From Fimicolochytrium jonesii (Eukaryota), in NCBI RefSeq assembly GCF_025526975.1, contig NW_026515689.1, positions 372,001-436,000 of the forward strand: a stretch of 64,000 bases of DNA. Direction: 5' to 3'. The position numbers were made by a program, and so were the translations under genes. Numbering within the stretch: position 1 is the stretch's first letter; each line of letters opens with the position of its first letter. Below, piece after piece: positions 6,034-8,417 of this stretch. The notes under the pieces were generated by a model. That model ran no database searches. It was not told the DNA's origin and saw only the letters and a program-made list of their open reading frames with translations.

Positions 6034-7115
6034 GTGAAGTCAGCGGCAGCAACATCTTGTCCCAGTTTGGAAATGGCGTTGGAAGATGAAGCGGACCTTG
6101 CCGCGGAGATCGCAGCCCAGGAGGCAGCGCGCGCAGCGCAGGCAAAGAGAATGAAGGAGCTGAGAGCCCAGGCCGCAAAACCCAAGCGAGCCGCTGCCAC
6201 GTCGTCGTCGTCTACGCCAACAGCCGAGTCCACTCACCGCCGGCAGCCTGCGACCGCAGCCCGCGAGCATTCCGAGCTCGCTACAAAGAGGAGAAAGGCG
6301 GTGGAGCTGGATGAGGAGGTGGAGAGTCGTCGTGGGAGCAGGAGGGGCAGTCGAGCGCAATCACCGGTGGAGGCGGGCATATCGTTGTCGGACGATGAAG
6401 GGGTGGTGGAGGTGGTGGAACGCGCGAAGCCGGAGGGGAAGCACCCTGTTGCCGGGGTGGACGACGCGGAAGACGAGGACTATAAGCCTCCTGCTGGAAG
6501 GAAGAGGAGGTGCGAAGGCCGCGTTCTACCCCGCGTTCGGTCGCCAGGAAATGTCCGCCTTTACGACGTCGGCTCCCTCGCTCACAACGACAGCACTCCC
6601 GACGCCAGAAGAGTTCTTCAACTCTACCAGCACCGAGAAAGGCACGAAAGAAGAACTAAGTACAGTCAAGTACAATAATGCAGGTTACCCACGTCGTCGA
6701 CGGTCGGCCCCCGGAGCAAACAGCCACGGGCGAGATGCCGACATTGCCTCCGACATTTTGACAACCCCAGCACTCGACAACCACACCAGCACACAATGGG
6801 GAGAGTACTGATTTCCCAGAAGAGATCAGCCATACTTGCCTGGGGTTGTCAAAATGTCGAAGAATGTCGGCCTCTTGGCAATCTTGGCGACGGCGTTGGC
6901 TGTTTGCTCTGGGGGCCGACCGTCGCCTCACGTGGGTGACCTGCTTTATTGTACTTGACTGTATATATATTGCAGAGTTTCTTCGCGCAAACAACAAGGT
7001 ATCCTTGCATTCTCTTGCGCGCGTTTTTCCGATCGTCCCTTCTCATGTATTTTTTGTAGGAGACTTGGATCGACAAATCCCAAAATCTTTTCATAATATC
7101 TGGTTATTGTGACTA
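6034..7115 (+). pseudogene. Disrupted low-complexity hypothetical gene interrupted by a MITE
   Basis: Charged A/E/R-rich ORF 6034-6678 with an apparent frame change near 6510. Removing the MITE and one TA restores EELSIYIAEFLRANNK, followed by a GT-AG intron-like segment. Confidence 0.4.
6663..6961. mobile_element. Tc1/mariner-type MITE (299 bp) with long imperfect TIRs and TA TSD
   Basis: TA|CAGTCAAGTACAATAA...TTATTGTACTTGACTG|TA; the arms stay complementary for about 110 bp (…GACATTTTGACAACCCCAG / CTGGGGTTGTCAAAATGTC…). Confidence 0.9.
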
Positions 7116-7195
7116 ACTCAAATTCACCCTAGTGACCAACGTCCTATTCGAACCTTAGGTTTGATTTCTATAGTTAAGTTATGATGTGGTGATAA

Positions 7196-8038
7196 TTGAC
7201 TGCGTACCTAGACGTGCGAAAAGCTGGATCCGACGTCACGAGTGGCTCTACCCGTCCTGACGGCAACCAGTGTTCCATCGATCCGGGGAGCAGAGTGCCA
7301 TGGACGTGTTTCGACGCGCATCGCCGCAGGTTTTACGACATCTACCCAGATTTGGTGGACAAACTCTCCAACCTTCACAACGAAATCACCCTGCCAAGCC
7401 GCAAGGATTCGGGAGCGACCATGCCGGGAGGTCGTCCGGCTCACCGGAGGCGCAAGAGGCAGAGAAAACGAGCGAAGGGGAAGAAACGGAAGAAGAAACG
7501 GCACTGGCGAAAGAACCGCGAACGTCACATATCCAGGCTATACGACCGGATGAAGACCATTGTGAGCGCACGGGGCCAAGCGCACGGGGCGTTTGCCAAC
7601 CATCCCGTCCGATGTTATGACATGGTCGTCCTCCCCGAATTCATGACGGCAGGGATGGTCCGGAAGCCACGAAAGCAGCTCAAACTCCCGCCCTTGCGAG
7701 AACGAGAGGCGTTGAACGCACCCCCCAAGGAGGGCAGGTTCACGCTCCACAAGACCACTCGCAAGGCGATGCGATGGATATCGCACCACGCCTTTCGCCA
7801 GAGGATGTTCGCCAAGGCCTTGGCCGATCCTCGCGAGACGAAGGATGTCCTGTGCACGACGGAGGAGTACACCACCAAACAATGTCCTTTCTGCGACCTT
7901 GTTCACCACAAAATTGGATCGAACAAGGTGTTCAAGTGCGGGAACGAAGCGTGCGGCTTCGAGGGTAGGAGGGACAACGTTGGGTGTTTCAATGTCGGAC
8001 TTCGAGCGATCGTCAAAAACGAAATAGTGATGGTATGA
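7196..8038 (+). CDS. Fanzor2/TnpB-like RNA-guided endonuclease, RuvC plus zinc-finger half (5'-truncated, no ATG)
   Basis: RuvC-I SIDPGSR (D at 7280), YDMVVLPEF, LHKTTRKAMRWISHHAFRQRM, displaced RuvC-II EEYTTK (7862-), zinc finger CPFC...CGNEAC, RuvC-III RRDNVGCFNV (D at 7973). Confidence 0.88.
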   Translation: MTAYLDVRKAGSDVTSGSTRPDGNQCSIDPGSRVPWTCFDAHRRRFYDIYPDLVDKLSNLHNEITLPSRKDSGATMPGGRPAHRRRKRQRKRAKGKKRKKKRHWRKNRERHISRLYDRMKTIVSARGQAHGAFANHPVRCYDMVVLPEFMTAGMVRKPRKQLKLPPLREREALNAPPKEGRFTLHKTTRKAMRWISHHAFRQRMFAKALADPRETKDVLCTTEEYTTKQCPFCDLVHHKIGSNKVFKCGNEACGFEGRRDNVGCFNVGLRAIVKNEIVMV

Positions 8039-8184
8039 GACTCTCTGAGAGTATGCCCTTACCTTCAAGGGCGAGGAGGACCTAGTCTAGAAATAGTTCG
8101 CTATGTATAGCTATGGACACTCCTCAGTTAGAAGGTGAAAGGACACCTACGTCGCCTCAATCGCTCCCGGTTTCGGACAGCCGG
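8039..8184 (+). ncRNA. Candidate Fanzor omega-RNA scaffold / element right end
   Basis: Directly 3' of the Fanzor stop. Stems GCCCTT/AAGGGC (8055-8072), GAGGAG/CTCCTC (8073-8125) and CCGGTT/AGCCGG (8167-8184); loop ACCTTC (8061-8066) is complementary to GAAGGT (8131-8136). Sequence becomes A/T-rich after ...GCCGG. Confidence 0.65.
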
Positions 8185-8417
8185 AATGAAAGTTTTACAA
8201 AATCATTCCAAGAATAGGTAAATAGCTACAGGCTGAAAAGCTCGCACACACCCAACGCCAAAAGAGGTCAGACCGTCAATTGCTTCGCTCCCGCCCTCAT
8301 GTTCTTGCTACGGTCTGCTAACCCACCCCCACGGTGTCTTCCCCTTCGGTGCTTCAGTTCGCAGAGAGATTGTTTCTTGGTTCAGATCTCCATCTGCCGC
8401 AAGTCTTCATCCTGCAA

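What the first reader, a model, noticed from the sequence alone, without database searches (positions are those of the whole stretch)
8039..8204. Candidate omega-RNA with pseudoknot and a sharp element end
Seen: 146 nt after the Fanzor stop fold into successive stems. The 6-nt loop ACCTTC (8061-8066) of the GCCCTT/AAGGGC hairpin is the exact complement of GAAGGT (8131-8136), allowing a pseudoknot. A terminal hairpin ends at ...GCCGG (8184), followed by A/T-rich host-like sequence. Established: TnpB/Fanzor guide RNAs derive from the element right end, contain a pseudoknot and take their guide from flanking DNA; IS607-type elements end at GG. Inference: scaffold 8039-8184 (possibly starting inside the ORF), guide ~8185-8204 (AATGAAAGTTTTACAAAATC), in the 3' flank of the convergent WTAP gene.
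Basis: partly seen in the sequence, partly recalled or inferred. Interest (0 to 1): 0.7.

Follow-up and report, generated by a model that had tools for sequence, protein, structure and literature searches.

The report
Compact guide RNA of broken Fanzor2
Just after a broken RNA-guided nuclease gene (Fanzor2) in a soil chytrid fungus lies a short stretch, conserved in related transposons, that is predicted to fold into the enzyme's guide-RNA scaffold; it ends 47 bases earlier than first proposed, so the likely guide is a different 20 bases, and this copy would need a nuclease made elsewhere.

Summary
The omega-RNA and its pseudoknot hold up, but the proposed end and guide do not. The locus is a decayed IS607-type Fanzor2 element in a Spizellomycetales chytrid. 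Two metagenomic relatives with full-length Fanzor genes (L001, L002) share the same layout after the stop codon: a hairpin whose loop starts TACCT, a long stem closed by GWGGAG/CTCCWC, a 7-8 nt linker, then AGGTG. The distance from stop to AGGT is 98, 96 and 96 nt. The sixth pseudoknot pair reads U-A, A-U and G-U in the three copies. Similarity stops right after AGGTG (window 8137). 8138-8184, including the 'terminal hairpin', has no counterpart in the relatives and folds no better than shuffles. The scaffold is therefore about 8055-8137 and the guide is predicted at 8138-8157, matching the published rule that the pseudoknot's 3' strand abuts the guide. The end reads TG, not GG. This copy's nuclease lacks its first ~390 residues, and its transposase carries a MITE, so the RNA could work only with a nuclease made elsewhere. 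Limits: three distant copies, no RNA data, no left end, no whole genome. A new member of a known kind, from a chytrid clade not found in three Fanzor census supplements.

The parts
8055..8137 (+). Conserved core of the predicted omega-RNA scaffold. Its 5' end is uncertain; 8039-8054 is not conserved.
   Evidence: 8053-8128 folds at z = -3.13
8055..8072 (+). Stem-loop 1. In relatives the loop is 8-9 nt and begins TACCT; this is the 5' strand of the pseudoknot (8060-8066).
   Evidence: 2 pairs changed on both sides, 2 cells unpaired; read-through tails of P0016 and P0013 translate the same motif
8073..8125 (+). Long stem-loop 2, closed by 8073-8078 pairing with 8120-8125; the interior varies between copies.
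   Evidence: 6 of 6 pairs kept in 3 of 3 copies, one A-U to U-A change
8131..8137 (+). 3' strand of the pseudoknot and inferred end of scaffold and element (ends AGGTG).
   Evidence: 6 pairs kept in 3 of 3, sixth pair UA/AU/GU; no similarity beyond
8138..8157 (+). Predicted guide (host flank; length assumed about 20 nt). It can pair back with 8133-8137.
   Evidence: Inferred; back-pairing; no second match better than 15 of 20 in the window
8138..8204 (.). Flanking DNA between the element and the WTAP gene.
7204..8038 (+). C-terminal remnant of Fanzor2 (RuvC DPG, rearranged E, C4 zinc finger, RD). About 390 N-terminal residues are missing and the frame shifts near 7252.
6506..7078 (+). 5' remnant of IS607-type TnpA (MerR HTH to the YCRVSS motif), split by a MITE and carrying a 61-nt GT-AG intron (6999-7059).
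6663..6961 (.). Palindromic MITE inserted at a duplicated TA inside TnpA.
   Evidence: empty site seen in L001
8418..8918 (-). Last coding stretch of the convergent host WTAP/Mum2 gene.
   Evidence: PF17098, E 6e-15

Best explanation
8055-8137 is conserved in sequence and pairing pattern at the right end of related IS607-type Fanzor2 elements and is likely the guide-RNA (omega-RNA) scaffold, with a predicted pseudoknot that ends at 8137 and a predicted guide at 8138-8157. In intact family members the RNA would be processed from the 3' end of the Fanzor transcript. Stem-loop 1's loop would pair with the last five to seven scaffold bases to form the pseudoknot held by the WED and RuvC domains, and the next ~20 host bases would direct cutting of the empty site after the serine recombinase excises the element, favouring its retention (inferred from ApmFz2, ISXfa1 and CboIStron). 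Shown here: conservation, pairing pattern, boundary of similarity, and the broken genes. Inferred: expression, folding, protein binding, guide length, and that the scaffold end is also the recombination end. This copy cannot make its own nuclease or transposase, so it is a relic or at most a guide donor for a Fanzor2 made elsewhere.
For: Stop to AGGT is 98, 96, 96 nt in window, L001, L002. The 96 nt ending at AGGTG align in 3 of 3 pairs among these three copies (scores 43-53; 0 of 500 shuffles as high each). The 96 nt after it do not (42, 366 and 83 of 500). An unbiased search found only two helices of 4 bp or more shared by all three: stem 2 and the pseudoknot. 49 of 51 cells pair, 4 of 17 pairs change on both sides, and sliding the partners drops pairing to 37-61%. 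Core folds have z = -3.13, -2.22, -2.42. The stem-loop 1 motif shows through in the read-through tails of 2 of 6 proteins with extended tails, P0016 and P0013. The family has MerR and resolvase TnpA, DPG plus rearranged E, and ApmFz2 as best sequence and fold match. In ApmFz2 the pseudoknot uses scaffold positions -4 to 0 (PMC11832414); PMC10711439 places it on the five bases flanking the guide.
Against: Only three alignable copies, all distant (54-62% protein identity), so 5 of 6 pseudoknot pairs never vary and covariation rests on one pair. The tool warns that its shuffle count is not a probability. The more distant L003 lacks stem 2, ends AGGTT, aligns with only 1 of the 3 other copies (L002) and is not hit by model R1 at E up to 5. 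L001's flank has a strong hairpin of its own (z = -2.49), and the L001-L002 49-nt flanks scored at 22 of 500 shuffles, so a longer, fast-changing element end is not strictly excluded. At this locus 8133-8137 pairs with 8153-8157 at probability about 0.9 in a model that cannot form pseudoknots, which could misfold the RNA. P0024, P0028, P0029 and P0167 have extended tails without the motif.
Confidence: 0.82

Rival explanations
1. One reading: the scaffold and element run to the GG at 8184 and the guide is 8185-8204.
For: A 6-bp hairpin is predicted at 8167-8184. GC falls from 0.62 to 0.30 at that point. IS607 elements recombine at GG (PMC10711439). L001 also has a hairpin in its flank.
Against: No similarity to any relative past 8137 (0 of 3 pairs with the window; 178, 419 and 323 of 500 shuffles as high). 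The hairpin is no better than shuffles (z = -0.60). It would put the pseudoknot strand 47 nt from the guide, unlike ApmFz2 and ISXfa1.
Confidence: 0.06
2. The conserved stretch is only a DNA right-end signal for the serine recombinase (or an mRNA 3'-end hairpin); the pseudoknot is coincidence.
For: IS607 right ends carry overlapping DNA and RNA constraints (PMC13521648). A 6-nt complement arises in 2.7% of shuffles. No RNA data.
Against: Stems keep pairing while letters change, including the long-range sixth pair in three forms. The geometry matches known Fanzor2/TnpB RNAs.
Confidence: 0.07
3. The scaffold ends at 8137 but the transposon continues further, or recombines at the GG (8134-8135) or GT inside the motif, so the TG end is not the crossover.
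For: L003 ends AGGTT, and its pseudoknot pairing stops at the GG. No left end or empty site was found.
Against: TG follows AGG in 3 of 3 independent insertions of the closer group (about 1 in 256 if both bases were free flank; my arithmetic). In CboIStron the scaffold's last two bases are the core dinucleotide (bioRxiv 2023.11.20.567912).
Confidence: 0.25

Closest known systems
ApmFz2 omega-RNA (Acanthamoeba polyphaga mimivirus IS607 element; PDB 9B0L; PMC11832414)
   Same: IS607-type TnpA plus Fanzor2. The family protein's best sequence match (E 5e-5) and fold match (E 1.5e-16). The pseudoknot joins a 5' loop to the last five scaffold bases.
   Different: ApmFz2's scaffold spans -205 to 0; here the conserved core is about 83 nt. 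The family protein is 649-672 aa against 520. The element is nuclear in a chytrid, has introns in TnpA and ends TG; ApmFz2's TAM is GGG. This copy is broken.
ISXfa1 reRNA (PMC10711439) and CboIStron omega-RNA (bioRxiv 2023.11.20.567912), bacterial IS607
   Same: Serine-recombinase element, right-end RNA, pseudoknot abutting the guide.
   Different: Their ends are GG-based. ISXfa1's RNA is about 150 nt. No group I intron here (none found by Rfam on 7700-8400).
SpuFz1 and its ghost loci in Spizellomyces punctatus (PMC10432273)
   Same: Same host order; short RNA right after the stop; loci that keep the RNA without a working gene.
   Different: Fanzor1 lacks the pseudoknot (PMC11832414) and Spu-1 has terminal inverted repeats. 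SpuFz1 was not among the PDB hits at E up to 1 or the listed fold hits. This locus is a decayed full element, not a shown ghost family.

Membership tests
Fanzor (any) | RuvC1 DPG motif and glutamate six residues before the zinc finger (PMC10711439) | tested here: met
   Window, L001 and L002 all have IDPG and EEY(T/S)TKQCPFC. D-to-E spacing is 190-203, outside that paper's 120-160 search pattern.
Fanzor (any) | Eukaryotic genomic context | tested here: met
   WTAP and Nma111-like neighbours; the latter is 100% identical over 84% of the query to a protein NCBI names from Fimicolochytrium jonesii. Named homologues are all chytrid.
Fanzor2 in IS607-type element | Upstream MerR-HTH/serine-resolvase TnpA | tested here: met
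   Pfam MerR and Resolvase in P0025, P0015, P0016; remnant in the window and fuller genes in L001, L002.
Fanzor2 in IS607-type element | Closer to Fanzor2/TnpB than to Fanzor1 | tested here: met
   ApmFz2 is the top hit by sequence and by fold for the L002 protein. No tree was built.
Fanzor2 in IS607-type element | Intact nuclease (WED, REC, RuvC) at this locus | tested here: not met
   About 390 N-terminal residues are absent in the window. Full ORFs are present in L001 and L002.
IS607 family | GG core dinucleotide at both ends | tested here: inconclusive
   Conserved end is AGGTG in 3 of 4 loci and AGGTT in L003; left end not found.
TnpB/Fanzor2 omega-RNA | Conserved structured stretch at the right end with an abrupt loss of similarity | tested here: met
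   boundary at 8137. Only distant copies were available.
TnpB/Fanzor2 omega-RNA | Pseudoknot between an apical loop and the five bases next to the guide | tested here: met
   one covarying pair, five invariant.
TnpB/Fanzor2 omega-RNA | Expressed, bound by the nuclease, directs TAM-dependent cleavage | not testable with these tools
   Needs RNA sequencing and a cleavage assay.

The most novel reading that the evidence does not exclude
Chytrids carry an undescribed nuclear IS607 lineage with an intron-bearing serine transposase, an enlarged 650-680 aa Fanzor2 and one of the smallest pseudoknotted omega-RNA scaffolds (about 83 nt; possibly under 50 nt in the L003 subgroup), which recombines at TG instead of GG and so would cut at a TAM ending in TG. 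Decayed copies like this one would supply extra guides in trans.
Probability: 0.3. Interest if true: 0.6.

Novelty: new member of a known kind. Interest (0 to 1): 0.38.

Why it matters
The corrected boundary gives a ready-to-test scaffold for the intact relatives (L001, L002 and chytrid genome copies). A short natural Fanzor2 RNA with a possibly different TAM would interest genome-editing and transposon groups. The clade's peptide motifs were absent from the supplements of three Fanzor censuses, and its D-to-E spacing falls outside one published search pattern. The locus itself is a relic and the mechanism is a known one.

Tried and rejected
No whole genome is held, so sister copies could not be aligned. 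Within the window there is no second copy by blastn, tblastn or model R1 (next hit 13.3 bits, E 0.96). Rfam gave only 3 chance-level hits on 7700-8400. Protein-seeded scans found 0 of 43 candidate stretches in viral contigs, 0 of 23 in prokaryote genomes and 3 of 39 in metagenomes. DNA-pattern scans gave 120, 5 and 28 loci. Model R1 was run on 80 of the 120 and on all 33 others; the best, L137 at 32 bits, was selected by the pattern itself. None of the 153 loci has a Fanzor match by tblastn at E up to 0.01, so all were rejected as chance. Sequencing runs: no RNA holder listed. The one DNA run X1 covered only two 151-nt pieces of the WTAP side and nothing informative on L001; this is no evidence either way. 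Left end: no shared motif upstream of TnpA among window, L001 and L002, and no convincing inverted copy of the right end. Targets for either candidate guide: none better than 15 of 20 in the window. ESM Atlas gave no usable hit for the 6073-6660 ORF. The hairpin at 8040-8052 is specific to the window and was dropped from the model.

Full report
Observation. The minimum-energy fold of 8039-8204 shows successive stems but is only mildly stable, z = -1.49. A hairpin whose loop has a perfect 6-nt complement downstream arises in 136 of 5000 shuffles of 8039-8184 and in 9 of 438 tiles of the window; a looser 5-nt version arises in 752 of 2000 shuffles. The single sequence is therefore suggestive, not decisive.

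The element. The ORF ending at 8038 carries the TnpB zinc-ribbon domain (PF07282, E 6e-7). Searches returned 14 similar-length and 16 longer homologues; every named one is from a chytrid. Three of the 16 longer gene models (P0015, P0016, P0025) include resolvase, and P0025 also MerR. A neighbouring host protease is 100% identical over 84% of the query to a protein named from Fimicolochytrium jonesii, followed by Powellomyces and Spizellomyces. A profile search found 44 cluster representatives at E up to 1e-30. The window copy is broken. TnpA similarity runs from 6506, is interrupted by a 299-nt palindromic MITE at a duplicated TA, resumes through a GT-AG intron shared with L001, and then jumps, after about 120 nt of poorly alignable A/T-rich DNA, to the Fanzor segment that corresponds to about residue 390 of the 672-aa L001 protein. 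The RuvC D-E-D residues and zinc finger are intact, but WED and REC are gone. The L002 protein's best PDB match by sequence and by predicted fold (pLDDT 72, pTM 0.50) is ApmFz2.

The RNA. A metagenome scan gave three related loci. In L001 and L002 the stop codon is followed by the same layout as in the window, and AGGT ends 98, 96 and 96 nt after the stop. The 96 nt ending at AGGTG align among the three copies far above shuffles (0 of 500 in each of 3 pairs). The following 96 nt do not (42, 366, 83 of 500), nor does 8138-8186 against any of the 3 relatives. In alignment A4 only two helices of 4 bp or more are shared by all three: 8073-8078 with 8120-8125, and 8060-8065 with 8132-8137. RNAalifold picks the same two. 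With stem-loop 1 added, 49 of 51 cells pair and 4 of 17 pairs change on both sides; slid controls give 37-61%. The sixth pseudoknot pair is U-A, A-U and G-U. The structure was derived from these same sequences and there are only three, so this is support, not proof. Two further family members show the stem-loop 1 motif through read-through protein tails (2 of 6 extended tails among 30 proteins scored). L003, more distant, keeps a similar loop and a complementary strand ending AGG only 47 nt after its stop but lacks stem 2; its fold is not significant (z = -0.88) and model R1 does not detect it.

The boundary. PMC11832414 (first fifth of the text and passages) shows the ApmFz2 pseudoknot using scaffold positions -4 to 0, with the guide starting at +1. 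PMC10711439 (passages, sections 25 and 26) places it on the five bases flanking the guide and shows it is needed in ISXfa1. The conserved pairing here, TACCT with AGGTG, is five pairs ending where similarity ends, so the scaffold is inferred to end at 8137 and the guide to start at 8138. In CboIStron the last two scaffold bases equal the recombination core GG (bioRxiv 2023.11.20.567912, passages). Here they are TG in 3 of 4 loci, which predicts a TG core, but no left end or empty site could be found and L003 ends TT. Against a clean picture: L001's flank has its own hairpin, and at this locus the predicted guide can pair with the pseudoknot's 3' strand (the program cannot model pseudoknots, so the competition is not measured).

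Mechanism. Inferred from ApmFz2, ISXfa1 and IS607 IStrons (PMC13521648, passages): TnpA excises the element, Fanzor2 loaded with the right-end RNA cuts the rejoined site, and repair restores the element. Here neither protein can be made, so the RNA is a relic or a guide donor in trans, like the ghost loci described for SpuFz1 (PMC10432273, passages). Whether the genome holds an intact partner could not be checked.

What is in print. Fanzor2 in IS607-type elements is known (PMC3627910, passages; PMC10530073, passages), as are eukaryotic IS607-like sequences (PMC3673617, passages) and introns in Fanzor loci. Five library searches (listings and abstract starts) showed no paper on this chytrid clade. 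The clade's peptide motifs scored 0 in the supplements of PMC10711439, PMC10432273 (one scanned file not searchable) and PMC10530073. PMC10711439 does list 33 Fimicolochytrium rows; I saw 2, both a different Fanzor type. Supplements of bioRxiv preprints and subscription papers were not seen, so absence from print is not established. That CAGT-type inverted repeats with a TA duplication point to Tc1/mariner is recalled, not tested.

Verdict. A real omega-RNA-type scaffold with a supported pseudoknot, about 83 nt, ending at 8137 rather than 8184, on a dead Fanzor2 element: a new member of a known kind, with a compact scaffold and a possible TG end as the points worth testing.

Noticed in passing
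window 6999-7059; L001 about 1820-1886; L002 about 2511-2577: The IS607-type serine transposase genes carry GT-AG introns. The window and L001 share one position; L002 lacks it and has another.
   Followed up: partly
window 6663-6961: A 299-nt palindromic MITE with a TA duplication inserted in TnpA; no second copy in the window.
   Followed up: partly
window 6073-6660: A 196-codon charged, low-complexity ORF runs in frame into the TnpA HTH remnant and replaces its normal N-terminus. It has no Pfam or Atlas hit; the element's left end seems lost.
   Followed up: partly
L003 996-1043: A distant relative has a much shorter version (47 nt from stop to AGGT) with a similar loop and a small UUCG hairpin in place of stem 2; P0013's tail shows the same loop motif.
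   Followed up: partly
proteins P0024, P0028, P0029 (Borealophlyctis gene models): Family Fanzors that continue 190-290 residues past the usual end without the RNA motif; P0028 ends in C2H2-like zinc fingers. They could be gene-model artefacts or domesticated fusions.
   Followed up: no
L001 4356-4420: Strong hairpin (z = -2.49) directly after the inferred element end, unrelated to the window's flank.
   Followed up: no
window 7079-7200: About 120 nt of A/T-rich DNA between two TnpA-matching words at the deletion junction; origin unknown.
   Followed up: no
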